Shown: positions 15,796 to 31,800 of the stretch, one piece after another
Layout: every line of letters begins with the position of its first letter
Position numbering within the stretch: position 1 is the stretch's first letter
From: Pyrinomonadaceae bacterium
GTDB taxonomy: Bacteria; Acidobacteriota; Blastocatellia; Pyrinomonadales; Pyrinomonadaceae
Assembly: GCA_025923035.1 (NCBI GenBank)
Contig: JAICGQ010000001.1
Span: forward strand, 1 to 53,764
Length of the DNA stretch: 53,764 bases
Reading direction: 5' to 3'
The notes under the pieces: generated by a model
Told to the model about the DNA's origin: nothing
Databases searched by the model: none
The model's input: only the letters and a program-made list of their open reading frames with translations
Position numbers and translations under genes: made by a program

Positions 15796-15815
15796 CTGCT
15801 TGGAATACCAAGCAG
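15796..15815. promoter_or_regulatory. operator-like palindrome, copy 1 (CTGCTTGGAATACCAAGCAG)
   Basis: Perfect 8-bp inverted repeat with a 4-bp spacer, about 70 nt upstream of the exporter ATG. Near-identical copies lie at 17547 and 17621. Confidence 0.55.
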
Positions 15816-15886
15816 ATTCACGTTTTTGTGTAGCGTGTGCCGAAATCTTCGTAGAGTCGCCGAGGTTCATAACCGGGACGAAACTG

Positions 15887-17542
15887 ATGCGACCGCAGCC
15901 GTATCGCGAACTCTCGTGGCTTGCGTCTGAAGTCAGACCATTTTTGCGTCTTCACGCCGGCAGTTACGTGTGCATTGTTGCCGGCTCGTTTCTCGTTCTT
16001 CTCGATCCACTGATCATCCGCCTCCTGATCGACGACGTAATTCCGCAGCGGCGCTTTAGTTGGCTGCCACTCGTCGCCGTCGCGCTGTTTCTTACCTACA
16101 TGGGCCGTCTTGGACTCGATGCTCTCGCGGGACTGCTGAACGTCTGCGCAGTGCAGAAGATGTCGTTTCACGCGCGCTTGAAACTGCTGCGTCATGTGCA
16201 ACGACTCTCGGCCAATTACCACGACAACACACCGGTGGGCGACACATTGCATCGTTTGCAAATCGACGTCGATCAGGCAGCGACCCTCACGGGAGAGGTG
16301 ATCCCAACGGTGTTACGAATGTTGACAATGTTCGTGGTCGTACTATCGGCAATGCTCGTTCTGAATTATCGTCTCGCGCTTGTCGTGATACCGCTGGTTC
16401 CGGTCTTCATTCTGGTCCGGCGGCGGTTTCACCATCAGCTACGGTCTGCTTCCGATTCCGTGCAGCGGGAATCGAGCAAAGTGATCGGGTTTCTCGACGA
16501 ACATCTGGCCGCGATTCTTCAGATCCAACTGCTTTCGTGCGAACAAAGAGAGGCGCGACGGTTTGCTCGTCTTTCGGCGGCCGCAGTTCGCGCGCAGGTC
16601 AAACGACGCGGCACGGAGATGTTCTTCAGCGTGGTGCTCTACTTGATTATCGTTATGGGCATCGCGAGTGTGCTGTGTTACGGCGGTTACCAGGTGATGG
16701 TGGGGACGTTAACCGCGGGAAGTCTGGTGGCGTTTTATGGCTATACGCTTCAATTGTTCTCGCCCTTGTATGGCGCGATCGAGATCTATTCGAAGTTGCA
16801 GCGCGCGGCAGCGAGTGTGCGGCGTCTTATTGAGATTGCCGATGCTGAAGTCGCCGTGAATGATAAACCGGCAGCCGTCGTTCTGCGACCGGGCACGCCT
16901 GCCGCTGTCGAGTTGAAGAATGTTTGTTTCGGTTACCACAGCGACCGACCCGTGCTGAATGCTTTGAGCATGCAGGTGAATCGCGGGGAACGAGTCGCGG
17001 TCGCCGGCAGCAGTGGCATTGGCAAAAGCACAATCGGACGGTTGGTCGCGCGACTGTACGACGCTCAGGATGGGACTGTTTTCGTCGCCGGCAGTGACAT
17101 TCGCGACATCAAACTCAAGAGCCTGCGATCGTCAGTAATTCTCGTGCCTCAGGATCCCGTTTTGTTCGATTTGACCCTGCGTGAGAATTTGCTCTATGGA
17201 AACGCAACCGCCACGGTCGACGAGCTTGAACGCGTGAGCGAGGTGGCGCAGTTGAGACAGGTGATCGACCGTCTGCCGAAAGGTTGGGACGAACCACTTG
17301 GTCCGCGCGGCAACCGCCTCTCCGGCGGCGAACGTCAACGAGTAGCGCTCGCACGCGCGCTACTGCAACGCCCGAGCGTCTTAATTCTTGACGAGTGTAC
17401 CTCCGCACTCGACGCGCTGACCGAAACACGTTTACTCGCGAGTCTGAACGACTTCCTGCACGACGTCACAACCATCATGATCTCGCATCGGCCGCTGCCG
17501 ACTAGTTGGGCCGACCGCGTCGTAAACATCGAACTCCAATAG
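15887..17542 (+). CDS. ABC transporter, fused permease/ATPase exporter (lasso-peptide D-type candidate)
   Basis: N-terminal 6-TM-type domain. Walker A GSSGIGKST, signature LSGGERQ, Walker B LILDE. ATG 15887 is preferred because the listed TTG at 15800 lies inside the palindrome. Confidence 0.85.
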   Translation: MRPQPYRELSWLASEVRPFLRLHAGSYVCIVAGSFLVLLDPLIIRLLIDDVIPQRRFSWLPLVAVALFLTYMGRLGLDALAGLLNVCAVQKMSFHARLKLLRHVQRLSANYHDNTPVGDTLHRLQIDVDQAATLTGEVIPTVLRMLTMFVVVLSAMLVLNYRLALVVIPLVPVFILVRRRFHHQLRSASDSVQRESSKVIGFLDEHLAAILQIQLLSCEQREARRFARLSAAAVRAQVKRRGTEMFFSVVLYLIIVMGIASVLCYGGYQVMVGTLTAGSLVAFYGYTLQLFSPLYGAIEIYSKLQRAAASVRRLIEIADAEVAVNDKPAAVVLRPGTPAAVELKNVCFGYHSDRPVLNALSMQVNRGERVAVAGSSGIGKSTIGRLVARLYDAQDGTVFVAGSDIRDIKLKSLRSSVILVPQDPVLFDLTLRENLLYGNATATVDELERVSEVAQLRQVIDRLPKGWDEPLGPRGNRLSGGERQRVALARALLQRPSVLILDECTSALDALTETRLLASLNDFLHDVTTIMISHRPLPTSWADRVVNIELQ

Positions 17543-17786: not shown

Positions 17787-19484
17787 ATGAGTGCACTTGC
17801 GGGGATACTCAATTTTGATCGAGCGCCTGGCGAATGTCACGCACTTGTTTGGGACGGGCGGTTGGATAATCGCGCCGAGTTGATTTCGCAACTTGGAAAT
17901 CGCGTCGAGCAGTCGTCAACCGACGTCGACATTGTGATGGCGTCGTACTTGAACTGGGGCATAGATTTTCTCCCTCATTTGATCGGCGACTTCGCCCTTT
18001 CCTTGTGGGACCAAACCACACGGACGTTGATCCTGGCGCGCGACGCATTCGGAACACGACCGATCTACTACCGCGCGAATCCGCACGGCATCACGTGGTC
18101 GTCGGATCTCGCTTCTCTGCTGGACGTTGAGAAACTCGAAATCGATCGTGAATACGTCGCTTCCTATCTGAACGGCGCTCCCGATCTGGAGCGGACGGCT
18201 TACAAGAACATCCACTCTGTGCGACCCGGATCAGCGTTGATCATTCGCGACCATCGAATCGAGAAGCACGAGTTCTGGCGGCCCCATGTCAAACGAGAGG
18301 TTCGTTACCGTTCCGATTCAGAATACGAAGAACACTTTTGCGATCTGTTTCGCGATGCGGTTCGTTGTCGGCTGCGATCGGATGGTCCTGTTTGGGCGGA
18401 GCTGAGTGGCGGTCTCGACTCGTCGGCGATCGTGTGCATAGCCGATCAGATCGCCGGATCGTCGCAGATCGAAACCGTTTCTTACGTCTACGACAATTCT
18501 CGCGCCTCAGACGAGCGGCGTTTCATTGCAGCAGTCGAAGCACAGAGAGGCCGCGCGGGACATCATTTTCACGAGGACGATTCCGTAGGACGGTTTGTGA
18601 ATTTAGACGTCGCCTCGATCGTTAGACCAAACCCCACTTACCGCTTTACCGCACGACACGATTGGGTGCGACGGCAGATGCAGGAAACCGGCAGTAGCGT
18701 GTTGCTCTCCGGAATCGGCGGCGACAACTTACTGTGGAGCGGCGCTGAAACCTCGCCGGAACTCGCGGACCTGCTGGTCCAGCTAAAGCTGCCGTCGCTA
18801 CATCGCGCGGTCAAGCTGTGGAGCCGTGCAACGCGAGATTCGTACGCCGCGACGTTGTGGCGCGGCGCGGTGTTGCCCTGTGTGAAACCCTCACTGCCAG
18901 GCACATCCGCGCTAATCGACCGCGATTTTGCGAAACAGATGCAGCTTCAGGAGCGCAAAACACAGGCGATTGACGCGCAGGGTTTCAAGCTGCCGAGCGC
19001 ACGTGCGCAGGCTTGCTTGTTGGCGTCGGTGGTTCGTGCGGTTGCGAGTTGCTACTACCTGGATCGCGTTGCCACTGAGTATCGCTTCCCGTTCCTGCAC
19101 CGGCCGCTCGTCGAGTTCCTCCTTGCCGTTCCGATCGAACAGAAGCTACGGCCCGGCGAAAACCGATCGCTGCAGCGACGTGCGTTGAGGCATGTGTTGC
19201 CGGCGGCGATCCTGAGGCGGCAAAGCAAGCGGTGTTCGACCGAAGCGCTGTGTCGCACGCTTGCGGCCAACTGGCGCGAAGTCGAGCCGTTGTTCAAAGC
19301 GCCGCTGGTGTGCGAGTACGGCTTCGTCGATCCAAAAGCGTTTGCCGACGCCGCGAGGTTGATCCGGCACGGCTTGCAGAATCCCGGCGGAGAACTGGTG
19401 GGCGTACTTTCGGTCGAGCTTTGGTTACGAGGGCTCGAGTCGAACAGAGCATCGTCGTTGCGAGAGGTGAAATTGGCAAGCTGA
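17787..19484 (+). CDS. lasso peptide cyclase candidate 1 (asparagine synthetase B-like, C-type)
   Basis: AsnB-like fold lacking the N-terminal catalytic Cys (starts MSALAGIL). PP-loop SGGLDSS present. Located directly upstream of the B protein. ATG 17787 preferred over the listed 17709. Confidence 0.85.
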   Translation: MSALAGILNFDRAPGECHALVWDGRLDNRAELISQLGNRVEQSSTDVDIVMASYLNWGIDFLPHLIGDFALSLWDQTTRTLILARDAFGTRPIYYRANPHGITWSSDLASLLDVEKLEIDREYVASYLNGAPDLERTAYKNIHSVRPGSALIIRDHRIEKHEFWRPHVKREVRYRSDSEYEEHFCDLFRDAVRCRLRSDGPVWAELSGGLDSSAIVCIADQIAGSSQIETVSYVYDNSRASDERRFIAAVEAQRGRAGHHFHEDDSVGRFVNLDVASIVRPNPTYRFTARHDWVRRQMQETGSSVLLSGIGGDNLLWSGAETSPELADLLVQLKLPSLHRAVKLWSRATRDSYAATLWRGAVLPCVKPSLPGTSALIDRDFAKQMQLQERKTQAIDAQGFKLPSARAQACLLASVVRAVASCYYLDRVATEYRFPFLHRPLVEFLLAVPIEQKLRPGENRSLQRRALRHVLPAAILRRQSKRCSTEALCRTLAANWREVEPLFKAPLVCEYGFVDPKAFADAARLIRHGLQNPGGELVGVLSVELWLRGLESNRASSLREVKLAS

Positions 19485-19500: not shown

Positions 19501-20271
19501 ATGACCAATAGTGATGGACCGTCTTACCGTGTCGCCTCCGATGTTTGTTTCAGCACAGACGCCGAGGGAACGATCATTCTCGACGTCCAGGGCGGGAAGT
19601 TTCACAGCTTGATTCAGGGCGGGAGCAAGGCGTGGTCCATTCTCACTGCACACCGCCAGGGAATCACGCAGAAAGAACTCGTCGATCAGTTGATGGTCCA
19701 TGACGAAGAGTGCGCGCAGGAGCCACGCGACAAAGTCGATTCAGCCATCCAGCGCATCCTGCAACAACTCATGCGCGACGGATTGCTCACGACGGACCAG
19801 TCATACAATCGTTCAACCCTGGAAACTCTCAAGTGTCGCTTGTGTGAAGCCGGCGCGACTGCCGTTCGCCACACGAGCAACACGTTGATCCGTTTTCGGA
19901 GTGTGCCGGCGGCCGCGTTCATTGAATTTGTGTTCTACGAGGTGATCCGCAGATTCGGCGGCTTCTATGCGCGGCACAAGATCATTCGTCAGTGGCCCAT
20001 CGCGAACGCGCGCCGGAACGACGACATTGACCTGCCTGGACTGTGCGAGGCGGTGCACACGGCGGCCGTCTGGTATCCAAAACAAACATTGTGTTTGCAG
20101 AAGGCTTCGGTGACGACGAGCCTGTTGCGCCAGCACGGCTTTCAGGCCGACATGAAGATCGGTGTGCGCAAACAACCGTTTCATGCTCACGCCTGGGTCG
20201 AAGTTGATGGCCAGGTTGTGGGCGACCATCAAAACGTCCGCAAGTATTTCAAAGAAATTGCAAGCTGGTAA
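19501..20271 (+). CDS. fused lasso peptide B1-B2 protein (PqqD-like RRE + transglutaminase-like leader peptidase)
   Basis: The N-terminus resembles PqqD/RRE (GTIILDVQGGKFHSLIQGGSKAWSIL...ITQKELVDQL). The C-terminus has Cys/His/Asp peptidase elements (TLCLQKA...HAHAWVEVDGQVVGD). AAGGAG RBS upstream. Confidence 0.85.
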   Translation: MTNSDGPSYRVASDVCFSTDAEGTIILDVQGGKFHSLIQGGSKAWSILTAHRQGITQKELVDQLMVHDEECAQEPRDKVDSAIQRILQQLMRDGLLTTDQSYNRSTLETLKCRLCEAGATAVRHTSNTLIRFRSVPAAAFIEFVFYEVIRRFGGFYARHKIIRQWPIANARRNDDIDLPGLCEAVHTAAVWYPKQTLCLQKASVTTSLLRQHGFQADMKIGVRKQPFHAHAWVEVDGQVVGDHQNVRKYFKEIASW

Positions 20272-20299: not shown

Positions 20300-22234
20300 A
20301 TGAGTGGGATCGGAACAATATTCAGCTTTGACGACGCACCTGTCAGTAAAGAACGGTTGCAGTTACTGAGCGAGAGCCTGTCGGCTCGTGGGTCGGACGG
20401 CATCTTCTCGTTTTGCGCGGCAACGGTCGGCATGTGTTTCAGCGCCCTGCACACTACGCGCGAATCGTGGTCCGAGAAGCAGCCGTTGATCACCGCTGAC
20501 GGGAACGTGCTCGTGATGGACGGAATCCTGTTCAATCGCGAGGAGCTGATTGATTTGCTGCGCCTCGCGCCCGACGACGATCGGACGGATGCGGGCATTG
20601 TGAGTGCGGGACTGCGAAAGCATGGCGCCGGCTTCCTGGCGAAAATCGCCGGCGACTTCGCGATCGTTCACTACGATCGCAGATCTAACAGTCTGCTGCT
20701 CGCGCGAGATCCATTCGGGATGCGGCAGTTGTATTACCACCAGCAGCGAGACGAGCTGTTGGTCGCGTCAGATCTCGCCGCACTAATCAAAGTTGCCGGC
20801 AGGCCTGCCGAATTGGACCAGGAATACATTTGCACTTACCTGGTGACGGTTCCCGAGGTCGGAAGAACACCATATCGCGGCTTCTATCCCGTACAACCCG
20901 GACACCTGATCCTGGCGCGTAATCGACAACTCACCACGAGCCGGTTCTGGCACCCTGAGTCGATCAAGGAGATTGTTTACCAAACAGACAGTGAGTACGA
21001 GGAACACTGTCGCCACCTGATGACGGAGGGAGTGCGTCAGTGTCTGCGGACCGACGATCGTCCGATCTGGTCAACGTTGAGTGGCGGTCTCGACTCTAGC
21101 ACTGTCGTTTGTCTCGCCCATAAATTGATTCGGAGCGGTAAGGCGGAGACCAGGGAGCTGCAAAGCGTTTCGATTGTGTTTGACGAAGCGCGGTCCGCCG
21201 ACGAGCGACGATTCATTCGCGCGGTAGAAGAGCAGGTGGGCCACGCCGGGATTCACCTGAGCGATGATTCCTACTGGCTGGCGATCCCGTCGCCTGAGAG
21301 CGCGTTTCTGCGCGTGCCGACGCCGCTGCTTTGCGTTCCGGGACGGCAGGATCGAATCCGGGAACTAATGATCGAACAAGGCGCGCGCGTGTTGCTCAAC
21401 GGGTTGGGAGGCGACCAGATCTTCTGGAACATGCCGATACCGTCGCCGCAGATGTCAACCCAGCTACTGAACCTCGAGTTCACCGCGCTGCATCAAGCCA
21501 CGAAAGCGTGGAGCCGCGCGTTCAAACAACCTTACCTGCACACGCTATGGAAGATGTCGTTCCTGCCATTCATGCCGGACGTGGTAAAGGCTTTGTTTCA
21601 GCCCAAACTGTTGATTCCGGAGTGGCTCGATCGAGACTTTGCGCGCCGGATGCGGTTACGCGAGCGAACGCTCGAACCTCGCGATCCATACGGGTTCGAC
21701 GGTCCCGGCAAGCAAATCCAATCCGGTGTTTTCCAGCAGCTCATTCGCATGATCGCGAGTGGAGAATTCGCGGAACGAGACGGCATCGAATGGAGAGCGC
21801 CACTGCTGTACCGTCCTCTCGTCGAATTCGCTTTCGCAATCCCGTTCGAACAGAAGTTGCGGCCCGGCGAGATCCGGTCGCTGATGCGGAGAGCATTGCG
21901 GAACGACTTGCCTGAAAGAGTCCTCCATCGCCCGGGCAAGGGAGAGATCAGCGAAGCGATGCACAAAGGATTGCTGAGGCAAAGCAGCACAATCGATCAA
22001 CTGCTTGCCGATCCACTGGTTTGTTCACTTGGCTATGTAGATCGAGAACGACTGCGGTCAGCCGTCAGCCTGGCAAAACACGGCGCGAAACTGAATGTTG
22101 GCGCACTACTCAACACAATATCGCTGGAGATCTGGCTGCAGTCGTTTCGACACCACGGTGGGATCCTGAACTCGACCAGCAACGCAAACGCGGGTTCGAT
22201 CTTGCCGCTGTTGTCACAACCTGCAAACGCCTGA
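20300..22234 (+). CDS. lasso peptide cyclase candidate 2 (asparagine synthetase B-like, C-type)
   Basis: Second AsnB-like ORF (starts MSGIGTIF, no Cys2) with PP-loop SGGLDSS. Colinear with cyclase 1 along its length. ATG 20300 has a GAGGA RBS and is preferred over the listed 20162. Confidence 0.85.
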   Translation: MSGIGTIFSFDDAPVSKERLQLLSESLSARGSDGIFSFCAATVGMCFSALHTTRESWSEKQPLITADGNVLVMDGILFNREELIDLLRLAPDDDRTDAGIVSAGLRKHGAGFLAKIAGDFAIVHYDRRSNSLLLARDPFGMRQLYYHQQRDELLVASDLAALIKVAGRPAELDQEYICTYLVTVPEVGRTPYRGFYPVQPGHLILARNRQLTTSRFWHPESIKEIVYQTDSEYEEHCRHLMTEGVRQCLRTDDRPIWSTLSGGLDSSTVVCLAHKLIRSGKAETRELQSVSIVFDEARSADERRFIRAVEEQVGHAGIHLSDDSYWLAIPSPESAFLRVPTPLLCVPGRQDRIRELMIEQGARVLLNGLGGDQIFWNMPIPSPQMSTQLLNLEFTALHQATKAWSRAFKQPYLHTLWKMSFLPFMPDVVKALFQPKLLIPEWLDRDFARRMRLRERTLEPRDPYGFDGPGKQIQSGVFQQLIRMIASGEFAERDGIEWRAPLLYRPLVEFAFAIPFEQKLRPGEIRSLMRRALRNDLPERVLHRPGKGEISEAMHKGLLRQSSTIDQLLADPLVCSLGYVDRERLRSAVSLAKHGAKLNVGALLNTISLEIWLQSFRHHGGILNSTSNANAGSILPLLSQPANA

Positions 22235-22264
22235 GTTGATTCTTGAAGAAAGGAGGAAGCGGCC

Positions 22265-22399
22265 ATGACTCACGAAGCATTTGAAGCGGTCGACCTCGGT
22301 CACGCGGAAGAATTGATCGAAATCGGCATGCATGAAACGGACGAAGAAATGTGGCTGAAGTTTACGCCGGGAGCGACGCCTTACGTCGAGTTTGAGTAG
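22265..22399 (+). CDS. lasso peptide precursor candidate A1 (44 aa): MTHEAFEAVDLGHAEELIEIGMHETDEEMWLKFTPGATPYVEFE
   Basis: Hand-translated. AAAGGAGG RBS 7 nt upstream. Paralogous to the next small ORF. The leader-like V-x-LG-x-A-x6-G pattern resembles proteobacterial lasso leaders. Putative core has Gly1 and Glu7/Glu8. Confidence 0.7.
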   Translation: MTHEAFEAVDLGHAEELIEIGMHETDEEMWLKFTPGATPYVEFE

Positions 22400-22470
22400 A
22401 TACAACGAAACATCAAATTGGCTTCATGAAGCGGATCCGTCAGAACAATCTGAGAAAGGAGACCAGGCAG

Positions 22471-22608
22471 ATGACTTACGAATCTTTCGAAGTGGTGGAG
22501 TTGGGCAAGGCCGAGGTCGAAATCGAAATCGGCAACTTGAACGCGCCCGAGGAAGTCGATCGAAAATTCCTCGATTCCGTCGCGCCATACGTTGAATTCG
22601 ACGAGTAA
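22471..22608 (+). CDS. lasso peptide precursor candidate A2 (45 aa): MTYESFEVVELGKAEVEIEIGNLNAPEEVDRKFLDSVAPYVEFDE
   Basis: An internal ATG of the listed 60-aa ORF is preceded by an AAAGGAG RBS. Aligns with A1 without gaps through the predicted core, conserving G1, E7, E8, K12, F13 and P19-Y-V-E-F23. Confidence 0.7.
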   Translation: MTYESFEVVELGKAEVEIEIGNLNAPEEVDRKFLDSVAPYVEFDE

Positions 22609-22626: not shown

Positions 22627-22652
22627 GCAGGAGACAGTCATCTGTCTCCTGC
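22627..22652. terminator. perfect 11-bp stem / 4-nt loop hairpin between convergent operons
   Basis: GCAGGAGACAG-TCAT-CTGTCTCCTGC lies between the A2 stop (22608) and the peptidase stop (22679). No clear U-tract follows. Confidence 0.55.
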
Positions 22653-22678: not shown

Positions 22679-25297
22679 TCACTTCGTTTTTGCTGACTGG
22701 TTTGGTTGCCGGTTCAGCAGAAACTCATCAAACCAGTTGAATATGTGTTCGTACATGTCGAGCACATTTCCCGGAGATTCGATGGAGTGGCCTTCGGCGA
22801 GATAACGGACGAGCTTTGCGCGTTTTCCCAGGCGATTCAACGCAACAAAGAACTGTTCGGCCTCGGAAAGCGGATGAGCGTCGAGCTCTCCGTGGATCAT
22901 TAGCAGTGGCGTCGTGACTTTATCGACGTGAACGTATGGACTGTTTCGCAAGTACCGATCGAGGTCTTTCCATGGAGGCACACCCATACGCATTTGGTGC
23001 GCTTCCACAAGAAACGGCGCCCACAGCGGATTGGGTACATCGCTAAAGCGATACCGGATGTCAAGTCGGCCATAAGCACTCAGCAGATCGTTGACGCCGG
23101 CTAATGCTACAGCAGCTTTGAAGCGTCCGGTCTGCGTTACCAGGGCGTAAACGCTATAACCACCGTAGCTAAAGCCCATGAGACCGGTGCGATCGGGATC
23201 GGCAATCCCCATTTCCACAACCTTCTCGACGGCTGGTTTTACACCCTTATCAAGTTCCAGCATGGGATCACTTTGCACTCCCATTGGTGCAAGAGGAACG
23301 CTCGGATAGAGCACGGCGTAACCATGGCCCGCGAGAACCAATGGATCCGGGTAATCGCGCGACCTCCATTTATACGGATTCGCCCAATCGCCCGTCGGCG
23401 GTACACTGCCGCCGTAAACAGAAACTACTAACGGGTATCGATGTCCGGCCGTGTAACCATAGGGCAGGAGTAGAGCTCCGGAAAGCTGTTTACCCTCCGC
23501 TGTTTGATATTGAATGGTGCGATATTGAGGCTTTGCGATGGCGTCGAGTTGCCGGTTCAAAGAAACCAATGTGATCGACTTGGGACCATGTGCGCGCGCG
23601 TCGAGTAAACGAAGCTCTGTGTTCTCGCTTTCGTAAGCGAGCAATCGGCGTTTAGGTGAATAGCCCGCGAAGACGCTTCCGGCCGGCATCGTACCGAGCT
23701 TAACGGGTGCACCGCCGATAAGGTCCAACCGTAGAAGTTCAGAGCCGCCGGCACTTGACTGCGTAATGACGAGATGATCGGTAGGTCGATGGGCATCGGC
23801 AGGACGCGGCGAAACGATCGATGCTGCATCACTCAGGGCTTTTGCTGTTCGCGCTGCCGGATCTATGGCCCACACGCGTCCGGTGCTCGCACCGGCCATC
23901 AGATTTGAGTTTTGAATCTTGAAGAGTGACCGCGGAGACTGGGCCATCTCGCCCGTTAGCTTGTGATAAGAACCGGCGGAAGAGACGATCCACCAGTCGC
24001 GCTTCGCGGTCTCGCGGCTGTTGTCCAGAGCAAAGCCTCGCACGTCCTTAAGAGAGACTTCCGCGTCCAGGCTGGATCTGTCTCCCGCGTAGCCGTAAAC
24101 CAGAAGGTCTCCGCTGGCGGACCATTGGACGTCCTCCGCGGTCAGGAACTGCTTATCGCCTGGGTCGTATTTGACTGCCGCCACTGCTTCCGGTTTTTCC
24201 TGATCTCCGCGCACGTTGAAAACGGCGGGCGCGACGTCGTTGACTGACGTTCCGATGAAAGCGAAGGTAGAACCCGACGGCGCCCATCGCATTGACGTTG
24301 GTATCACTGCCAACGAGAAAGTCGCCGGTCGCACGTTCGGCACCCATGCCGGGACCGTATTTGTTTTAGTCAGATTTGCGACGCCGAGTCTTAACCTCGT
24401 GATGTCTTCGGTGCGTGGCGGTCTGTCCGGATCTACTGTGCTCGGATAATCCGTTGCGAGAATTGCGGCTGATTTATGGTCCGGCGAGATTGAAACGATG
24501 CGTTGCGAGAGACGCGTCTCGATAAGCGGGATACGCGTTACGATCCGCGTCTTGTTCGTGGCCAGGTCAATCAAACTCAGGCTCACATTCTTCTGTTGAG
24601 CTGATGGGTGCTCCACTTGCTCCGTATCGAGAATGCTGGCAGTGACACCGCGGCCGCGCTTCACATCAGCCATCGCTTTAGCGGCGATGCGGAACGTTCG
24701 TTCACTCTCGTCCATGGCGAGAGAGCGTATGCCCGGAGGCAGGACTCCCAGTAGCAGTTGATTCGATCCGAGCCACGCGATCGTCGACGTTTTGTTTTCG
24801 AGCGTCTCGATCGAGAGGCCAAGATCCACGCCATCGGTCGTACAGGCGCGCAGGCGTTGAGTGCTGAGATCGTAAACGTACGCGCGCACGTTATCGCCGC
24901 GCGTGGAGACCATAGCCAGCCGCTTGCCATCAGGTGACCATAGAGGGTTCCAGTAACCCGCGTGAACTGCTTCGCCACGCGTAACATTGATTAGTGTCTT
25001 GCCGTCAGTTGATGCGAGCCAAACATCGCTGCGTTCCAGTCCTCCCAGATATCCGGGTTCATACGACTCCCCCACCTTCTTGGGTCTCTGGATAACGATG
25101 GCCGCCCACATGCCATCGGGCGAGAACGCTGTTGCTTTGATGGCGTGCACCGTGAGCAGATCCTGAGGAACCATTGCGCGGCCGGGCGCGTTGGGTTGTG
25201 ATCTCGCGACATCACCTGGCCTGATGAGAACCAGTGCGACACAAAGAACCGGCAGCAGCAGATGATGGCGCGCGCGCGCGCTTGGTTTGCGGTACAT
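22679..25297 (-). CDS. S9 (prolyl oligopeptidase family) serine peptidase with N-terminal beta-propeller; lasso isopeptidase-like candidate
   Basis: Signal peptide, then a long TolB/WD40-like propeller region. The C-terminal alpha/beta hydrolase domain has GFSYGG (GxSxGG), HGELDAH and EGHSI triad elements. Convergent with the lasso operon. Confidence 0.8.
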   Translation of the reverse strand: MYRKPSARARHHLLLPVLCVALVLIRPGDVARSQPNAPGRAMVPQDLLTVHAIKATAFSPDGMWAAIVIQRPKKVGESYEPGYLGGLERSDVWLASTDGKTLINVTRGEAVHAGYWNPLWSPDGKRLAMVSTRGDNVRAYVYDLSTQRLRACTTDGVDLGLSIETLENKTSTIAWLGSNQLLLGVLPPGIRSLAMDESERTFRIAAKAMADVKRGRGVTASILDTEQVEHPSAQQKNVSLSLIDLATNKTRIVTRIPLIETRLSQRIVSISPDHKSAAILATDYPSTVDPDRPPRTEDITRLRLGVANLTKTNTVPAWVPNVRPATFSLAVIPTSMRWAPSGSTFAFIGTSVNDVAPAVFNVRGDQEKPEAVAAVKYDPGDKQFLTAEDVQWSASGDLLVYGYAGDRSSLDAEVSLKDVRGFALDNSRETAKRDWWIVSSAGSYHKLTGEMAQSPRSLFKIQNSNLMAGASTGRVWAIDPAARTAKALSDAASIVSPRPADAHRPTDHLVITQSSAGGSELLRLDLIGGAPVKLGTMPAGSVFAGYSPKRRLLAYESENTELRLLDARAHGPKSITLVSLNRQLDAIAKPQYRTIQYQTAEGKQLSGALLLPYGYTAGHRYPLVVSVYGGSVPPTGDWANPYKWRSRDYPDPLVLAGHGYAVLYPSVPLAPMGVQSDPMLELDKGVKPAVEKVVEMGIADPDRTGLMGFSYGGYSVYALVTQTGRFKAAVALAGVNDLLSAYGRLDIRYRFSDVPNPLWAPFLVEAHQMRMGVPPWKDLDRYLRNSPYVHVDKVTTPLLMIHGELDAHPLSEAEQFFVALNRLGKRAKLVRYLAEGHSIESPGNVLDMYEHIFNWFDEFLLNRQPNQSAKTK

Positions 25298-25311: not shown

Positions 25312-28300
25312 TCAGAACATGAGCTTCAAAGCGAACTGCATCGAGCGTGGTCCACCAATCTGATACAGCGGATTGAATCCGCCGGTCGCGCCGCCGCTTC
25401 CAAGACTGCGCCCAAACATGGTTTGAGAGAACCCGAATGCCGTGTTCAAACTATTGCCTGAATAAACCGTGCCGACGGGATCCGCGAAGTTTGGGTGATT
25501 AAAAATATTGAATGCTTCGGTACGAAACTGAAGCCGCAGCCGATCTTTCAAACGAAAGTCGCGGCGGAAGGCGAGATCGAGTTGGTAGACCGGGAACCCT
25601 CTCAGGAAATTGCGCGGAAGATTACCTTGTCGATTCTCCACGGGCGCCAGAAACGGACCAACTTGCGGACGTGGGTTGCCGGGGATCGTTACCGTCTGAT
25701 TGTTAAATCGCATTCCACCCGGAGCTTTCGGATCTTCGAGGTAGAGCGGTATTCCTTCGATAAGATCCGGCCGAAAGCTGAAAGTACCAAACCCGATATT
25801 GCGCGAGTAGACAATGTTTACGGGACCAGCAGATCGGCCGGTGAAGATCGTGTCGACCGACCAATCCTTCAACAGTTCACGGCCGACGCCTCCGAAAGCT
25901 GGAGCGGGAATGTTGTACGTAAGGGCGGCGGAAAACTGGTGCCGGATGTCGAAGTCCGATGGTCCTCTATCGATCTGCGGATCGAGCTTGTCACTTGGCG
26001 TCAGGAAGGCTGCATCACTTGATACGTTGTCGAGCGACTCGGAAAACGTGTATGAGACCAGCGCCTGGAAACCTCGAGAAAGTCGACGACGAAACTGAAG
26101 CTGCAGTGAGTTGTAATCCGACGTAGCCGCATTCCTGCTGACGTCCACTATCTGGAACTTCGGGTTCGGATTGAAGTAACGCTCCATCCGCAGTAGCTCC
26201 CGTCCTTTGGCGGCGACGTAAGCCACGCTGGCTACCTGACTGGCCCCGAGAGACTGATCTACCGTGACGTTCCATTGATAAGTGCGTGGCAACTTCAGAT
26301 GCGGATCAGCGACAAAGATAGTGCTGGTAAACGGTTGATCGAGACTGAACGGTGGAGGCGTGGCCGCCGCTGCATTCAGCGGGTATGGCGTTAATGACGA
26401 GCCGCGCGAGCGGGAATAAGGAAAACTGGTGAACGCGTTGCCCAGGAAACCCGAGCCGAGATCGTAGAAGATACCCCAGCCGCCGCGAATGACGGTCGCT
26501 GAGTTTGTGTGCTCTCTCAGGTGATAGGCAATGCCGATGCGTGGTCCAAAGTTTCCATACGTCGTCTCATAGAGCGGCGTGCCGAGAGGTGCGATCGCAA
26601 ACGTCGCCGGATTATCCAAACCCGTACCGCTTATAAGCTCCTTCTCTCCTTTCGGCGCGGGGTTAATTTCCCATCGCACGCCGTACGTCAGCGTTAATTG
26701 TCGCGACAGCTTCCATGTGTCCTGGAAGTAGGTGGAGATGTTGTGAAAGATGGCTGAGTTGGGATCGGCGGCGGTTGCACTTGCAGCCAACGTGATTCCG
26801 GAAGCAGCCGTACCCGGAGTAGCAGCCCCGTTCGCGTCCAGCACTGACAAGAACGTGATGGTTTGACCATAGACTCGACTTCCCCAGTAAGGTGACATCC
26901 TGCGGTAATCGCCGCCGAACTTGAACTGATGATTGCCCTTACTCATCGAAGCGTTACCAACCACGTTATGTTGGCGCTGCAAGTTGTCGTTGAGTCTGCC
27001 GATCGTGAGCACGGGGTTGCGGCCGCCAAGCGCGACAAGAAAGAACAACAAACTATCGTTCGAAGAGAAAGGCGCCGGAAATAAAGCACTCTCGGGCGGC
27101 GGCGTTGCTCCGCCCAGACCGTCAATCAGAAACGCGCTGGTGCCACGGTTTCTGCTGTAGTTGTATCGAAAGTCCGCGGTCACCGCCGGTGAAGCAATGA
27201 ATGTCACGCCTGACGTCAGCGTAAGCGTCTTGCTGCCGACGACGTTGACGTTATTCAACGGTGAGAGATTCGCGCCGCGTTGCTCCAATTCAGAAGGTGC
27301 ATAGTTGAACCTGCCGAAGGCAGTCACTTTGCTGCTCAACACGTGGTCCATTCGCAGGCTGGTTGCGTCGAGCCGCGATGGATCGGAATAGCTTGCAACA
27401 AAGTCCGCCAGACCATTCACGCGGTCAGGCCCGGTCGGAAGCGGGTAGCCGTTCAGGATCGGTTTGACTCCGGCTGAAGCTACTTGCCGCGCCGCTCGCG
27501 ACGGCACATCCGTCGCCGCGAAAAACGGTTGGCGGAGACGCAATGCTTCATACGAGAAAAAGAAGAAGGTGCGGTCGTGCCCGTCGTACCAAACCGGTCG
27601 GGTGCCTTCGCCCAAGCCCGGCAGTAGCAATGGACCACCAAACACACCGCCATAATTGTTCTGCCGCAACGCCGCCTTTCTGAGGCCGGGATTCGCATTT
27701 ACAAACCAGTCAGTGGCATCGAGCACGTCATTGCGCAGGTACTCGAACAGCGTTCCGTTGTAAGAGTTGGTACCGGACCGGCTCGCAATCGTGACTTGCG
27801 CCCCCGGAGTTCGGCCAAACTCAGGCGCAAAGGTAGAAGTCAGAATCTTGAACTCCTGCACTGCATCAACGGACACCAGGTTGCTCGTGCCGCCCGAGAC
27901 GCTGAAACCCGGTAACGAACCCGTACTGCTTTGACCGATGTTGCCGGCGGGAATGATGCCGATGTTTGCGCTTACGCCATCGACCGTAAAGTAGTTTGCG
28001 TTGGCACGTTGACCGTTGACGCTGAACTGCCCCTGGTCAGTCACGGACGTCTTCGTCAACACAACTCCCGGCGAGAGCGTGATCAGCGACTGAAAACTCC
28101 GGCCATTCAGCGGCAGGTTTCCGACAAACTGCTGGTCCACTATCGTGCCGACCGCGGGCGATTGATCGAGTAGCGGCGGCGTGGACAGTACGTCCACTGA
28201 TGAGCTGCTCAACGAACCGACTTTAAGAGCAATGTTGATCTTCACCTGGTCGTTGACGTTTAGAACGACGTCCGGAACTTCCGCAGTCGTGAATCCCTCG

Positions 28301-28653
28301 CGCTCGGCCTTGACGGTGTAAATGCCCGGCGGCAGTAACGGCACGACAAACTCGCCTTCTCGATTTGTGATCGCGGATCGTTGGAAGCCCTGCGCGATGC
28401 TGATCACGGCGACGTTGGCGCCCGGCACGACCGCGTCGTTTTGATCCGTAACCGTACCGCTAAGCGTAGCGGTCGCGCCTTGTCCATAAACAGTGATCGA
28501 TACCGATTGAAATGCGACGAAGAGGAGGAGAACTAAAACGCCGGTGAGCAGACGCAGAGCGGAGCATGGCGAGGTAAGTACCGGCGTTTCGTCATTTGTT
28601 TCGTGATAACGAGGACAGAAGGCAGACGAGCAGACTTCTGGGGTTCTGGGCAT
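25312..28653 (-). CDS. TonB-dependent receptor with carboxypeptidase-regulatory-like N-terminal domain
   Basis: LSGTVTDQNDAVVPGANVAV...YTVKAEREGF N-domain and a 1113-aa barrel. The C-terminus is ...MQFALKLMF. The gene lies 14 nt upstream of the S9 peptidase start. Confidence 0.9.
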   Translation of the reverse strand: MPRTPEVCSSAFCPRYHETNDETPVLTSPCSALRLLTGVLVLLLFVAFQSVSITVYGQGATATLSGTVTDQNDAVVPGANVAVISIAQGFQRSAITNREGEFVVPLLPPGIYTVKAEREGFTTAEVPDVVLNVNDQVKINIALKVGSLSSSSVDVLSTPPLLDQSPAVGTIVDQQFVGNLPLNGRSFQSLITLSPGVVLTKTSVTDQGQFSVNGQRANANYFTVDGVSANIGIIPAGNIGQSSTGSLPGFSVSGGTSNLVSVDAVQEFKILTSTFAPEFGRTPGAQVTIASRSGTNSYNGTLFEYLRNDVLDATDWFVNANPGLRKAALRQNNYGGVFGGPLLLPGLGEGTRPVWYDGHDRTFFFFSYEALRLRQPFFAATDVPSRAARQVASAGVKPILNGYPLPTGPDRVNGLADFVASYSDPSRLDATSLRMDHVLSSKVTAFGRFNYAPSELEQRGANLSPLNNVNVVGSKTLTLTSGVTFIASPAVTADFRYNYSRNRGTSAFLIDGLGGATPPPESALFPAPFSSNDSLLFFLVALGGRNPVLTIGRLNDNLQRQHNVVGNASMSKGNHQFKFGGDYRRMSPYWGSRVYGQTITFLSVLDANGAATPGTAASGITLAASATAADPNSAIFHNISTYFQDTWKLSRQLTLTYGVRWEINPAPKGEKELISGTGLDNPATFAIAPLGTPLYETTYGNFGPRIGIAYHLREHTNSATVIRGGWGIFYDLGSGFLGNAFTSFPYSRSRGSSLTPYPLNAAAATPPPFSLDQPFTSTIFVADPHLKLPRTYQWNVTVDQSLGASQVASVAYVAAKGRELLRMERYFNPNPKFQIVDVSRNAATSDYNSLQLQFRRRLSRGFQALVSYTFSESLDNVSSDAAFLTPSDKLDPQIDRGPSDFDIRHQFSAALTYNIPAPAFGGVGRELLKDWSVDTIFTGRSAGPVNIVYSRNIGFGTFSFRPDLIEGIPLYLEDPKAPGGMRFNNQTVTIPGNPRPQVGPFLAPVENRQGNLPRNFLRGFPVYQLDLAFRRDFRLKDRLRLQFRTEAFNIFNHPNFADPVGTVYSGNSLNTAFGFSQTMFGRSLGSGGATGGFNPLYQIGGPRSMQFALKLMF

Positions 28654-28822: not shown

Positions 28823-31800
28823 TCACTTGCCGTAAGTCTCGATTCGCTGGGCCAACCCTGTTGCACTTGCCGACGATCGCCAGAACGACGATTTCAGCTC
28901 CGTGGCAGAACTTCTCGACGAGATCGTGAAAGCGCTTCGCACCGCGTCGTTGTTCGCGAGTGCCAGCTTGTGCAACCTCTCGACCGCCAGCGCCAGATCT
29001 CCGTCGCTTCCGATCACCATACTGTCCATAACTTCCGATTCCGCGCCGGCGAAAAAGATCGGCTGCAGTTCGCGGCGCAACAATGCCGTCTCGCGTTCAA
29101 AGGCTGCCGCCTGCTCGCGCACCATTGCCAGCCACTTTGCGCGTGCATCCGGCGCAACGGTGCGCATGTCGACATTCGCAAACCTGTTGATGAGCTGCTT
29201 TAAAGCGATGGCGTGAAAAAGCGCGTCGTAAGCACGCTTCACTACGCGTGAAGAGAACAACCGCACGGCCTCGTCTACATCACCGCCGGACGTTGAACTG
29301 TTTCTCGATAAGTAGTAGCGCAGCTCGCGGTCTACGGCGACAGTGCTCGCCGTCGCTTCTGATGGATGTATCGAGATCGCACCGGGCTTCGCGGCGCGTT
29401 GTAGCGCCTCGTCCACCGTGCGGACGTCGATCGTCACCGCCGGGTTCTGGCTCACCGGCGCCAGCGCGCGCAGCAGCTCATTCTTTCGTTGCTCGGTCTC
29501 AACAATCCCCTCAACGCGCAACGACCCACCTGCGTTGCGCGTGAGGGCAACTTGCTCATTCCGGTCGGCCTTCGCCTGATTGAGCAAGTAAGCTACGTCG
29601 ACTTCCAGCTCGGCCGAGGCTACGGCTGGGGTCGACGCGCTCGTCAGCGGAAGGACACGGCTAGAGGTGAGGTCCCGGTGCGCCCAGTCGCCGGTCCTGC
29701 TCGTTGGTCTTGCCCCTCCTGTCAGTTCCGGTTCCACCTCAAACACGGCTTTGTTCACAGCCTTGCTGGGCACGAGCTCGAAGCTCGCCTCGGCGAACCG
29801 GTATTCACGCAAGTCTCCGCCGCGCTGGACCAGCAACGTCTGCTCGATCGGACGCAGATCAGACTGGTTCAAGGTGAGCGTGGCTTTCAGCAGACGACTG
29901 GCCCCAATCGCCCGCTCTTTTTCATAAGTCAGAACGTAACTCGTCGACCGGCGCTCGACCATCACCGCCGATGGTTCGGCAATCAGACTGGCGAAAACTC
30001 GCGCAGACGGATCGAGCAGCCACACGTTGTCCAAAGAGACCAACAGATCCGCGGGGTCCGCGGGCGCGACTTGCGGTTGTGGCTTGGCGCCGTGGTGATA
30101 AACGACGCGCGCGCCATCCGCCTTTTGCCATGTGCCGGCGACGAGATGGTTTGTTTCATCGTAGAGTCTCTGCGCGCGATCGCCCGTGGCATGGTTCTGC
30201 CAGATCTCGATCCGTCGTCGCGACACAACTGCTCCTTCCGGCGAACGACGCTCTTCCAGATTGATCAGGCGATGACTGGCGCGATCGCTTGGCTGGGCAA
30301 CTGTCTGCTCGGCCACCGCTGCACGTTCCAACAAAATCCCGGCCGTCATTGCGGGCTCAGACCGGTTGTTCCAAATCAGAAAACCGGCAAGCAACAGCGC
30401 GACAACCATGACGGCCACAAAACCAGGCCGCGTCCATATCCGACGCCGATCGAATGGTCCTGACAACAGCGAGAGACCCGCACCAACCGTCGTGTCGCTT
30501 TCCGCTGTATCAACCGCGCGAGTCCGCTTGAATCCAGGCCAAAGTTTTTTGGTCCATGACCGGAGAAGATCGACCGCACGATGAGTCGTCACCGTTGACT
30601 CAACCGTTTCGTCGACGGTCTGGACCAAAGCAAGGGGTGAGGACAAGCCGCTGGCGTTGATCATTTCTTCGTCAGAAATCTCTACGGGCAAAGGATCCTT
30701 ATAAATAACCCGAAGACTCGATCCGTTCAGTCGCAAAAATGCCGCCAATGTGCGGCCCTCGCTCAATGCGATCCAGGCCCACTGTTCGGATTCAGATCCC
30801 TTGCCACTGCTGAAGAAAAGCAGTTGCACGCCTTGCTCGCTGGTTATCTCGATAAACTCAACCGGCTCGTCCGGGTTCAGGTTGAGATCCACTTCCGTCC
30901 GTTCCGAAGAGACCGGCAACGAACTCAACGGCAAACCGTTTACGGCGATGCGCAACTCCTGCGGTTTGTGTTCGCTGATCGCTCGCAGGTGACGTCCGAG
31001 CTTCTTGCGCACATCCACCGGGCCGCCGCCCGACGCACCGCCGCCGCTGCCGCTGAAAGGTGGTTCATCACTGTCAGAGGAATCAGACGACACTTCCGTC
31101 TGACCACGCTGCGCGAGCAGCGGCAGACCCAACACGCTGTTCACTGCATCCAGACACGATCGACAACTGACGATATGAGCGAGTGTCGGCGTGGTCAGGC
31201 AGTCCGTATTGCCGAACGAGTAAATCCCGTGCAGTTGATGCGGAGTCAGACATGGTCCCTTACAGGAAAGAAAGATCATCTGCCGCAACTCACTCAACGG
31301 TTCGCCGCTCGAACCAAAACTCCTAATCGCGGCGCGTTCAGCAAGGCGTCTCGCATCGACGAAACGCAAACGTCCAGGCTCGTTCATGAACAACTTCACC
31401 TCACGACGCGCCAGTCGTTGCCACTGGTCCACACAGTGACGCGAGCTGCACAACACGCCGGCGATTTCGGTCGGGAAGTAATCATGAAAGAACCGCAGTA
31501 TAAGGACGCTGCCGGCGCGCGAGGATTCCTTGCGCGCGCAGGCGTACGAGCAGATCTGCTGCAACTCTTCGAAGGCCTGCATGCGGCGCGGGGGTTCAAT
31601 TGCCGTCCAACCCAACGTGAGCGAGTCGAAATCGGCAACCGAGAGCGCCGTGTCCTGCAGGCGTTGCGCTTGGCGACTCATTCGCGAGGTATGCATGTAG
31701 CGCAACATTCGTCTCAGGTATCCGTCGATGTTCTCAATCTGTTCCAGACCGGTGCGCCCGAGCATGAATTGGACAAACGCATCCTGCACCAGATCTTCGG

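What the first reader, a model, noticed from the sequence alone, without database searches (positions are those of the whole stretch)
22265..22608. Two unannotated paralogous precursor peptides with atypical leader/core features
Hand translation gives A1 MTHEAFEAVDLGHAEELIEI|GMHETDEEMWLKFTPGATPYVEFE and A2 MTYESFEVVELGKAEVEIEI|GNLNAPEEVDRKFLDSVAPYVEFDE. Each is preceded by an AAAGGAG(G) RBS. A1 is not in the ORF track because it is under 60 aa.

The leader pattern V-x-LG-x-A-x6-G resembles proteobacterial lasso leaders. The predicted cores start with Gly and carry Glu7-Glu8, which suits a 7- or 8-residue macrolactam.

Two features are unusual. The near-universal Thr at leader position -2 is Glu here (E-I-G). 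The peptides are also strongly acidic, with an invariant C-terminal P-Y-V-E-F.
Basis: partly seen in the sequence, partly recalled or inferred. Interest (0 to 1): 0.8.

Follow-up and report, generated by a model that had tools for sequence, protein, structure and literature searches.

The report
Acidobacterial lasso peptide precursors, two cyclases
The two small genes are real and conserved: they encode precursors of knotted "lasso" peptides from a soil Acidobacteria lineage.

Summary
Both ORFs exist as described: A1 at 22265-22399 (44 aa) and A2 at 22471-22608 (45 aa), each behind an AAAGGAG(G) ribosome-binding site. They close an operon: ABC exporter, cyclase C1, fused RRE-protease B, cyclase C2, A1, A2. 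A convergent S9 peptidase, a TonB-type outer-membrane barrel and a sigma/anti-sigma fusion follow.

Every syntenic Pyrinomonadaceae locus that extends past C2 carries 2-3 such ORFs with the same RBS. A profile search finds 149 relatives, all unnamed. The leader and tail are under purifying selection, and residues 21-26 are close to neutral. They are genuine lasso precursors of a family absent from Pfam and NCBIfam.

- Gly21 occurs in only 53-62% of family members.
- Position 18 is always Ile or Val.
- A gapless alignment to a canonical relative (L053: ...ELGDVEDLTF|GGSGCWTD) puts its Thr(-2) on Ile18.
- The astexins share the register LG-x-A-x3-T-x|core.

The likelier product starts at Ile20 and closes on Glu28 (9-residue ring) or Glu27 (8-residue ring). 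Ile at -2 is already documented.

New points: two old cyclase lineages are conserved around one B. An invariant Glu-Glu pair may give each cyclase its own acceptor. Sister clusters carry multi-unit precursors. Verdict: a new variant of a known kind, of moderate interest.

The parts
22265..22399 (+). Precursor A1 (44 aa, type I, ends ...PYVEFE). Probable leader is M1-E19 and probable core is I20-E44.
22471..22608 (+). Precursor A2 (45 aa, type II, ends ...APYVEFDE). Probable leader is M1-E19 and probable core is I20-E45.
22249..22256 (+). Ribosome-binding site AAAGGAGG of A1, 8 nt before the ATG
22455..22461 (+). Ribosome-binding site AAAGGAG of A2, 9 nt before the ATG
22627..22652 (.). 11-bp perfect stem (GCAGGAGACAG / CTGTCTCCTGC) with a 4-nt loop, between the convergent A2 and S9 genes. 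Probably a bidirectional terminator.
   Evidence: minimum free energy -37.6 kcal/mol, z = -4.1, 0 of 200 shuffles as stable
20300..22234 (+). Lasso cyclase C2 (Asn-synthetase homologue; SGGLDSS motif kept). The probable start is the ATG at 20300, not the GTG at 20162. It is the orthologue of the sole cyclase in sister clusters L012 and L013.
19501..20271 (+). B protein: a PqqD-like RRE fused to a transglutaminase-like leader peptidase (B1-B2 fusion). Conserved Cys198, His230 and Asp242.
17787..19484 (+). Lasso cyclase C1. It is 40% identical to C2, keeps SGGLDSS, and lacks about 50 aa of the N-terminal domain. It is a separate old lineage, and its probable start is the ATG at 17787.
15800..17542 (+). 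ABC exporter D (transmembrane plus ATPase domains). The true start may be the ATG at 15887.
13907..14710 (+). Conserved 267-aa protein upstream of the cluster, with no Pfam or NCBIfam hit. It is a putative regulator that is syntenic in related loci.
14998..15765 (+). Conserved 255-aa protein with a weak HTH match, syntenic in related and distant loci. A putative regulator.
22679..25297 (-). S9-family serine peptidase with an N-terminal hydrophobic signal-like segment and PD40 propeller repeats. A candidate lasso isopeptidase or C-terminal trimming enzyme.
25312..28653 (-). Outer-membrane beta-barrel with a CarboxypepD_reg domain (TonB-dependent-receptor-like)
28823..31921 (-). 1032-aa protein with an N-terminal sigma-70 region 2 and a long C-terminal extension (sigma/anti-sigma-like fusion)

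Best explanation
A1 and A2 are precursors of class II (disulfide-free) lasso peptides made by a Pyrinomonadaceae (Acidobacteriota) cluster.

Proposed steps (all inferred):
1. The RRE half of B binds the leader motif E-L-G-x-A-E-x-x-I-E.
2. The protease half of B cuts after Glu19, so Ile18 is -2 and Glu19 is -1.
3. The new amino group of Ile20 is joined by an ATP-dependent cyclase to the side chain of Glu28 (9-residue ring, as in astexins) or Glu27 (8-residue ring).
4. The tail threads through the ring and is locked by the conserved Tyr40/Phe43 pair.

The two cyclases are old, independent lineages. I propose that they share the work, either by precursor type or by acceptor: C2 to Glu at core position 9, C1 to Glu at core position 8.

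The exporter D secretes the peptide. The S9 peptidase, outer-membrane barrel and sigma/anti-sigma module sense, re-import and open or trim it, as proposed for proteobacterial isopeptidase-type clusters.

Shown: gene reality, conservation, family membership of B and C, synteny, and the leader register in relatives. Inferred: the cut site, ring size, threading, division of labour, and the roles of S9 and the barrel.
For: Context:
- Two Asn_synthase / lasso cyclase hits, one B2 hit above its cut-off (80 bits against 33) with a PqqD region, and an ABC exporter.

Gene reality:
- RBS, synteny, 149 relatives and the pN/pS pattern.

Cut site after residue 19:
- Position 18 is Ile 156 / Val 12 of 169 units. 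Conservation collapses between residues 19 and 20: 0.40 to 2.61 bits of entropy.
- Position 19 also occurs as Q, K, G, D, A and F.
- L053 aligns without gaps and has Thr18, Gly20 and Asp27. It hits NF033521. Its cyclase is the next outgroup in the tree.
- L028 reads VIQ|G......D.
- The single pattern LG.[AV].{13}[DE] ends on the ring Asp9 of astexin-1, -2 and -3, and on Glu28 of A1 and A2.
- Ile or Val at -2 has precedent (PMC10368454).

Acceptor:
- Glu28 is invariant in the 106 long-form members (98 of 98 plus 8 of 8), and position 27 is acidic in 96 of 98.
- One enzyme set making both 8- and 9-residue rings has precedent in the caulosegnins (PMC13352647).

Cyclase lineages:
- C2 + L012 + L013 group in 200 of 200 bootstraps. 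C1 and C2 are never exclusive sisters (0 of 200).
- Clusters whose sole cyclase is C2-like have an invariant Glu at core position 9 and a variable position 8.
- L028, whose sole cyclase is nearer C1, has Asp at core position 8 only.
- The two-cyclase clade has Glu at both positions.

Architecture:
- S9 + TonB-type barrel + sigma/anti-sigma follows the isopeptidase-cluster layout. Adding an exporter matches the rubrinodin type (PMC9266682).
- The S9/barrel pair is kept in loci whose B is only about 28-48% identical.
Against: - No experiment exists, so the cut site rests on homology and conservation.
- A cut after residue 19 makes core residue 1 hydrophobic and variable (I/L/F/V/M in 82%, 12 residue types), which is unusual for lasso peptides.
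- A cut after residue 20 gives the classical Gly1 in a majority, including both window peptides.
- In an outgroup superfamily the acceptor acid tracks a Lys 2-8 residues beyond the (I/V)(Q/E) pair. That pair therefore need not mark the cut site everywhere.
- The grouping of C1 with L028 has weak support (109 of 200), and the C1-type precursor evidence is two peptides from one locus.
- The S9 protein is not an AtxE2-family member by score: 104 bits against a cut-off of 400. AtxE2 scores 32 bits against 96 bits for a generic S9 peptidase.
Confidence: 0.6

Rival explanations
1. One reading: B cuts after residue 20 (E-I|G), so Glu19 is at -2. The core starts at Gly21 and the ring closes on Glu28 (8 residues) or Glu27 (7 residues).
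For: - Gly is the commonest residue at position 21: 64 of 98 long-form members, and both window peptides.
- With this start, the second Glu falls at core position 7, 8 or 9 in all length classes, which is exactly the allowed lasso range.
- Glu19 is highly conserved in the close clade.
- Sister precursors often read S-G at positions 20-21.
Against: - Position 21 has 16 residue types, including W, F, Y, I, V, E, D and K.
- Position 19 is Q, K, A, G, D or F in relatives, so it cannot be a specific -2 determinant.
- Glu at -2 has no precedent in the papers read.
- The canonical relatives L053 and L028, and the astexin register, put the cut one residue earlier.
Confidence: 0.25
2. The second cyclase installs a second isopeptide bond, for example from the side-chain amine of the invariant Lys32 to Glu27/28 or to a C-terminal acid. 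The product would be a doubly cross-linked lasso.
For: - Lys32 and Glu28 are the only invariant core residues in 112 members of the two-cyclase clade.
- Both cyclases keep the ATP-binding motif.
- In an outgroup superfamily a Lys sits 6-7 residues before the acceptor acid in 34 of 37 precursors. Lys-linked chemistry in this enzyme lineage is therefore not excluded.
Against: - C2-like cyclases act alone in sister clusters, and L028 has a sole cyclase nearer C1. The L028 precursors lack Lys altogether.
- The spacing from Glu-Glu to Lys varies between 3 and 5 residues.
- Lys is replaced by W, Y, R or P in single-cyclase relatives.
Confidence: 0.07
3. The ORFs are not lasso substrates. They could be small acidic regulatory, immunity or chaperone proteins, or substrates of the S9 peptidase alone.
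For: - There is no Pfam or NCBIfam hit for A1 or A2.
- The conserved C-terminal tail is unusual for a lasso core.
Against: - The ORFs always sit directly after the cyclase.
- They have a conserved leader, a hypervariable centre and an invariant acid at ring distance.
- They are homologous to a peptide that matches lasso_leader_L3.
- Relatives have leader-core cassettes in tandem, which is typical of RiPP precursors.
Confidence: 0.03

Closest known systems
Astexin-1, -2 and -3 precursors and their isopeptidase-type clusters (Asticcacaulis excentricus)
   Same: - The leader register L(-9)G(-8)x[A/V](-6)xxx(-2)x(-1) and the distance to the ring acid are the same: LG.[AV].{13}[DE] matches all five peptides.
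- A 9-residue ring is possible.
- The B protein is a fusion.
- An S9-type peptidase, a TonB-type receptor and sigma/anti-sigma genes lie downstream (PMC9266682).
   Different: - Ile, not Thr, at -2, and Ile, not Gly, at core position 1.
- Glu, not Asp, as acceptor.
- Two cyclases.
- The precursors lie at the end of the operon, not the start.
- The S9 protein is far below the AtxE2 family cut-off.
- The phylum is Acidobacteriota, whereas isopeptidases are known mainly from alpha-proteobacteria (PMC13352647).
Rubrinodin cluster (as described in review PMC9266682)
   Same: It combines an ABC exporter with an isopeptidase, a TonB-dependent receptor and a FecI/FecR-like pair. The window has the same combination.
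   Different: - The rubrinodin sequences were not compared here.
- The window has two cyclases, and its close relatives have lost the exporter.
Ile/Val(-2) lasso precursors (BsfA of Bradymonas; predicted Acidobacteriaceae and Sphingomonadales precursors; PMC10368454)
   Same: A beta-branched aliphatic residue replaces Thr at -2, and an acidobacterial occurrence has been noted before.
   Different: - Those carry a YxxPxL leader motif, split B1/B2 proteins and a kinase.
- The window has an ELGxAE leader and a fused B, with no kinase in the window. An APH-like kinase appears in the sister loci L011 and L012.
Caulosegnins I-III (Caulobacter segnis)
   Same: Several paralogous precursors lie in one cluster, and both 8- and 9-residue rings come from one locus (PMC13352647).
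   Different: There, one cyclase makes all of them. Here, two cyclases are conserved.
NCBIfam NF033521 lasso_leader_L3
   Same: The relative L053 (MTYEAPEMFELGDVEDLTF...) matches this model above its cut-off. It shares 9 of 19 leader residues with A2, without gaps.
   Different: A1 and A2 themselves do not match it.

Membership tests
Lasso peptide precursor (RiPP class) | Encoded beside an Asn-synthetase-like lasso cyclase (C) | tested here: met
   There are two cyclases. Each matches PF00733 (E about 1e-36) and NF033535 (301 and 304 bits). A1 starts 30 nt after the C2 stop codon.
Lasso peptide precursor (RiPP class) | Encoded beside a transglutaminase-like leader peptidase (B2) with a PqqD-like RRE (B1) | tested here: met
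   NF033537 scores 80 bits against a cut-off of 33, and PF13471 gives E = 7e-26. The PqqD match is weak in the window (E = 0.005) but clear in the L012 orthologue (E = 2e-7).
Lasso peptide precursor (RiPP class) | Asp or Glu at core position 7-9 | tested here: met
   Glu27/Glu28 are core positions 8/9 with a cut after residue 19, or 7/8 with a cut after residue 20. Glu28 is invariant in the 106 long-form members.
Lasso peptide precursor (RiPP class) | Thr at the penultimate leader position (-2) | tested here: not met
Ile or Val at -2 is a documented exception (PMC10368454).
Lasso peptide precursor (RiPP class) | Small residue (usually Gly; also Ala, Ser, Cys) at core position 1 | tested here: inconclusive
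At the probable site the residue is Ile20 (family: I/L/F/V/M in 82%).
Lasso peptide precursor (RiPP class) | Dehydrated (-18 Da), threaded product that resists carboxypeptidase | not testable with these tools
   This needs expression and mass spectrometry or NMR. Predicted masses are given.
NCBIfam NF033521 lasso_leader_L3 | Score above the model cut-off (19 bits) | tested here: not met
   A1 and A2 give no hit. The homologue L053 scores 23.3 bits.
AtxE2-family lasso isopeptidase (NF033523), for the S9 gene | Score above the equivalog cut-off (400 bits) | tested here: not met
   It scores 104 bits, with the best-matched stretch in the C-terminal hydrolase domain (3 stretches in all). DPP5 scores 98 bits. 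PDB AtxE2 scores 32 bits against 96 bits for a generic S9 peptidase.
Isopeptidase-type lasso cluster architecture | Peptidase followed by a TonB-dependent transporter and a sigma/anti-sigma pair, with a regulator upstream | tested here: met
   compared with the description in PMC9266682. The regulator type differs: two HTH-like proteins here, rather than GntR.
Isopeptidase-type lasso cluster architecture | Isopeptide-bond hydrolysis of the threaded peptide by the S9 enzyme | not testable with these tools
   This needs an enzyme assay: +18 Da linearisation against C-terminal trimming.

The most novel reading that the evidence does not exclude
The two conserved cyclases use the two adjacent invariant glutamates differently. 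C2 would close a 9-residue ring on Glu28, and C1 would close an 8-residue ring on Glu27 or use Glu27 for a second bond to the invariant Lys32. Each precursor gene would then yield two lasso topologies or a doubly linked lasso.

The sister clusters add tandem leader-core cassettes, which would be the first multi-unit lasso precursors.
Probability: 0.2. Interest if true: 0.75.

Novelty: new variant of a known kind. Interest (0 to 1): 0.55.

Why it matters
Lasso peptides are prized as very stable scaffolds. The biological role of the isopeptidase-type clade is an open question.

- **Reach.** This family extends that cluster architecture to Acidobacteriota, a dominant but little-cultured soil phylum.
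- **Selection pattern.** A hypervariable ring sits on a fixed leader and tail, which looks like selection for private signals or cargo carriers.
- **Testable system.** It gives a natural case for how two cyclases share one leader peptidase and one set of substrates.
- **Genome mining.** Patterns that require Thr at -2 and Gly at position 1 would miss the whole family.

Tried and rejected
- Pfam and NCBIfam scans of A1 and A2 gave no hit.
- The PDB sequence search with B gave nothing.
- Literature searches for acidobacterial lasso peptides, two-cyclase lasso clusters and multi-core lasso precursors found nothing specific.
- The paper of Kretsch et al. 2023 (PMC10126823) is not held.
- The motif search for AYDLDE was swamped by an ill-chosen extra term. 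The motif itself has zero hits.
- The family HMMs did not detect precursors in loci beyond the close clade. A motif and RBS scan was needed instead.
- An alternative cut before GATPYVEFE is rejected, because Gly36 is present in only 7 of 18 aligned sequences.
- A Thr-based site at Thr16 (LGQAET) is rejected, because position 16 varies (E, V, A, T).
- I first read VEFE / VEFDE as a follower peptide cut after Tyr40. I dropped this once the aromatic-x-x-aromatic pair (Y40..F43) was seen to align with F/Y-x-x-Y at the ends of units in distant relatives.
- I first read the exporter D as an insertion peculiar to the window. It is ancestral: 73% identical in L013 and present in many distant loci. The close relatives lost it.
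- Structure prediction of S9 or B was not attempted. No admissible alignment was available, and single-sequence models would be unreliable.

Full report
**Observation**

The window holds the two ORFs exactly as described. A1 is 22265-22399 and translates to MTHEAFEAVDLGHAEELIEIGMHETDEEMWLKFTPGATPYVEFE. A2 is 22471-22608 and translates to MTYESFEVVELGKAEVEIEIGNLNAPEEVDRKFLDSVAPYVEFDE. AAAGGAGG lies 8 nt before the A1 ATG, and AAAGGAG lies 9 nt before the A2 ATG. A perfect 11-bp hairpin at 22627-22652 follows A2 (z = -4.1).

**Context**

On the + strand:
- two conserved putative regulators (13907-14710 and 14998-15765);
- an ABC exporter D (15800-17542);
- cyclase C1 (probable start 17787, end 19484);
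- a fused PqqD-like RRE plus transglutaminase-like peptidase B (19501-20271);
- cyclase C2 (probable start 20300, end 22234);
- A1 and A2.

C1 and C2 are 40% identical, and both keep the SGGLDSS ATP-binding motif. C1 lacks about 50 residues of the N-terminal domain.

Convergent on the - strand:
- an S9 serine peptidase (22679-25297);
- a CarboxypepD_reg plus outer-membrane barrel protein (25312-28653);
- a 1032-aa protein that begins with sigma-70 region 2 (28823-31921).

**Are the ORFs real genes?**

Yes.
- A genome scan with B returned seven Pyrinomonadaceae loci with the same gene order.
- Every one of them that extends past C2 carries 2-3 homologous 42-45 aa ORFs there, each behind a GAAAGGAG(G)-type site.
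- A profile of these found 149 relatives among 5.8 billion proteins. All are short and unnamed, or labelled "hypothetical protein" from Pyrinomonadaceae.
- An exhaustive HMM scan of 1.84 billion cluster representatives found only 31, so the family is narrow.
- Among orthologues, pN/pS is 0.16-0.35 in residues 1-20, 0.35-0.38 from residue 27 onward, and 0.66-0.93 in residues 21-26.

This is the signature of a RiPP precursor: a conserved leader, a hypervariable core segment and a conserved tail.

Two subtypes co-occur in every complete locus. Type I ends ...PYVEFE, and type II ends ...APYVEFDE.

**Where is the leader cut?**

The family data argue against this.

Over 169 units:
- position 18 is Ile 156 / Val 12;
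- position 19 is Glu 160, and otherwise Q, K, G or D;
- position 20 has 12 residue types, 82% of them hydrophobic;
- position 21 has 16 residue types, with Gly at 53%.

Conservation therefore ends between residues 19 and 20.

A metagenome scan with an alignment of B proteins brought in more distant clusters whose precursors fix the register.
- L053/L055 read MTYEAPEMFELGDVEDLTF|GGSGCWTD. This is fully canonical (Thr at -2, Gly1, Asp8), matches NCBIfam lasso_leader_L3, and aligns to A2 without gaps, so that its Thr falls on Ile18.
- L028 has the same regulators, B, one cyclase, two precursors, S9 and the barrel. Its precursors read ...AEDVIQ|GVAGQGSD and ...AEDVIQ|GSIGEGTD.
- The L013 precursors have Q, A or E at position 19, and L053 has F.

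I also verified astexin-1, -2 and -3 by exact look-up. All three have L(-9)G(-8)K(-7)[A/V](-6)xxxT(-2)x(-1) and a Gly1-Asp9 ring. One pattern, LG.[AV].{13}[DE], ends on their ring Asp and on Glu28 of A1 and A2.

Residues restricted to Thr, Ile and Val are what is known for the -2 position (PMC10368454).

I conclude that the cut most likely follows Glu19. The leader is then M1-E19 and core residue 1 is Ile20.

**Which acid closes the ring?**

Glu28 is invariant in the 106 long-form members, and position 27 is acidic in 96 of 98. A short form (15 members here, 23 units in the wider set) has lost one ring residue and carries Glu-Glu at positions 26-27.

With the core starting at residue 20, the possible rings are 9 residues (Glu28) or 8 residues (Glu27). 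Production of 8- and 9-residue rings from one locus is known for the caulosegnins.

**The two cyclases**

A neighbour-joining tree shows:
- C2 groups with the sole cyclase of the sister clusters L012 and L013 in 200 of 200 bootstraps;
- C1 and C2 are never exclusive sisters (0 of 200);
- C1 groups with the L028 cyclase only weakly (109 of 200);
- L053 is the next outgroup.

The pair is therefore old and not a recent tandem duplication, and C2-like cyclases work alone elsewhere. L028 has a sole cyclase nearer C1.

The acceptor positions follow the cyclase content:

| Cluster type | Core position 8 | Core position 9 |
|---|---|---|
| Sole cyclase C2-like (L012/L013 type) | variable | invariant Glu |
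| L028 (sole cyclase nearer C1) | Asp | not acidic |
| Two-cyclase clade (window) | Glu | Glu |

This suggests that each cyclase uses its own acceptor, or its own precursor type. The evidence on the C1 side is thin: one locus and two peptides.

A second isopeptide bond to the invariant Lys32 is not excluded, but it is unlikely. The L028 precursors have no Lys, and the Glu-to-Lys spacing varies.

**The S9 peptidase and its neighbours**

The order S9, outer-membrane barrel, sigma/anti-sigma is the layout described for isopeptidase-containing lasso clusters. The combination with an exporter is described for rubrinodin (PMC9266682). The S9/barrel pair is retained in loci whose B protein is only about 28-48% identical.

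By sequence, however, S9 is not an AtxE2-family member. It scores 104 bits against a cut-off of 400. AtxE2 ranks well below generic S9 peptidases in the PDB search.

Its role, whether isopeptidase or C-terminal trimming, is inferred from context only.

**Relatives with tandem units**

Five distant family members are leader-core-leader-core cassettes. An example is P0138: MTYELETVELGHAEGLIE|SGDPPIADEAGVFKTFPDVAIY|AELGDAEDLIE|SGGPPLVDEYGTEKTYPDVAIY|AEE.
- P0138 was found in two samples, and the other four come from separate samples or datasets.
- Where the neighbourhood is known, they sit in a B-C-A-(kinase)-S9-barrel cluster.
- They show that the eleven residues xELGxAExL(I/V)E suffice as a recognition unit.
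- They show that units end at an aromatic-x-x-aromatic pair followed by acids. This aligns with Y40-V-E-F43 plus E or DE in the window.
- I found no report of multi-unit lasso precursors.

**Comparison with what is known, and verdict**

This is a lasso system. B and C pass their family tests, and an acid lies at ring distance. It fails the classical precursor rules: Thr at -2 and, probably, Gly at position 1. It also matches no curated precursor model.

What is new:
- the family itself, in Pyrinomonadaceae;
- two ancient cyclases around one B protein;
- the invariant Glu-Glu pair;
- the hypervariable ring, including residue 1, on a fixed acidic tail;
- the multi-unit relatives.

I rate it a new variant of a known kind, with interest 0.55.

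**Limits**
- All mechanistic steps are inferred.
- Family counts come from related sequences and are not independent.
- The tree is a simple distance tree.

Noticed in passing
L008 1058-1288, L009 774-1004, L010 538-876, L011 751-1020, L012 3513-3752 (proteins P0138, P0136, P0145, P0140; also P0137): These are tandem leader-core-leader-core precursors (2-3 units) in sister lasso clusters, each unit starting with xELGxAExL(I/V)E. Units within one protein differ from each other, so they are not assembly duplications. I found no report of multi-unit lasso precursors in the papers searched.
   Followed up: partly
L030-L094 (e.g. L034 10358-10498, L041 10279-10428, L037 10370-10507): This is an outgroup superfamily of 37 precursors in B-C-A-S9-barrel clusters, with the leader M.Y.KPE(V/I)..LG.A..(V/I)(Q/E) and the ending (P)AYDLDE or AYEPEE. 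The first Lys of the core lies at position 3-9, and the next acid gives a 7-9 residue span in 34 of 37 precursors (shuffles give 7.2 +/- 2.5). Counted from the leader end, the first acid mostly lies at position 10-12. Either the cut lies just before Lys after a variable spacer, or the Lys side chain forms the ring. There is no NCBIfam hit, and the motif is absent from the papers searched.
   Followed up: partly
window 15800-17542: The ABC exporter gene is present in the window and in distant relatives (73% identical in L013; also L034, L037-L039, L041 and others). It is absent from every close-clade locus that covers the region (for example L002, L004, L006, L007, L018). The close relatives therefore appear to have lost it.
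   Followed up: yes
L012 4100-5089; L011 1144-1779: An APH-family (aminoglycoside-phosphotransferase-like) kinase gene follows the precursors in the sister clusters. It is a possible tailoring kinase, different from the HPr-kinase type known for phosphorylated lasso peptides.
   Followed up: no
L013 6542-7051: In this single-cyclase relative, the slot occupied by C1 in the window holds a 169-aa protein with a weak response-regulator receiver match.
   Followed up: no
window 11464-12219 and 12287-13072 (- strand); 9082-9933; 10015-11463: Upstream of the cluster lie two adjacent Ku-domain genes, a 5'-3' exonuclease and a MatE transporter. They are syntenic in related MAGs at 81-95% identity. No link to the lasso cluster is apparent.
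   Followed up: no
window 22426-22470: An in-frame upstream ATG makes A2 appear as a 60-aa ORF, and one database entry (P0035) was called that way. In other loci this extension is interrupted by stop codons, so the 45-aa form is the conserved one.
   Followed up: yes
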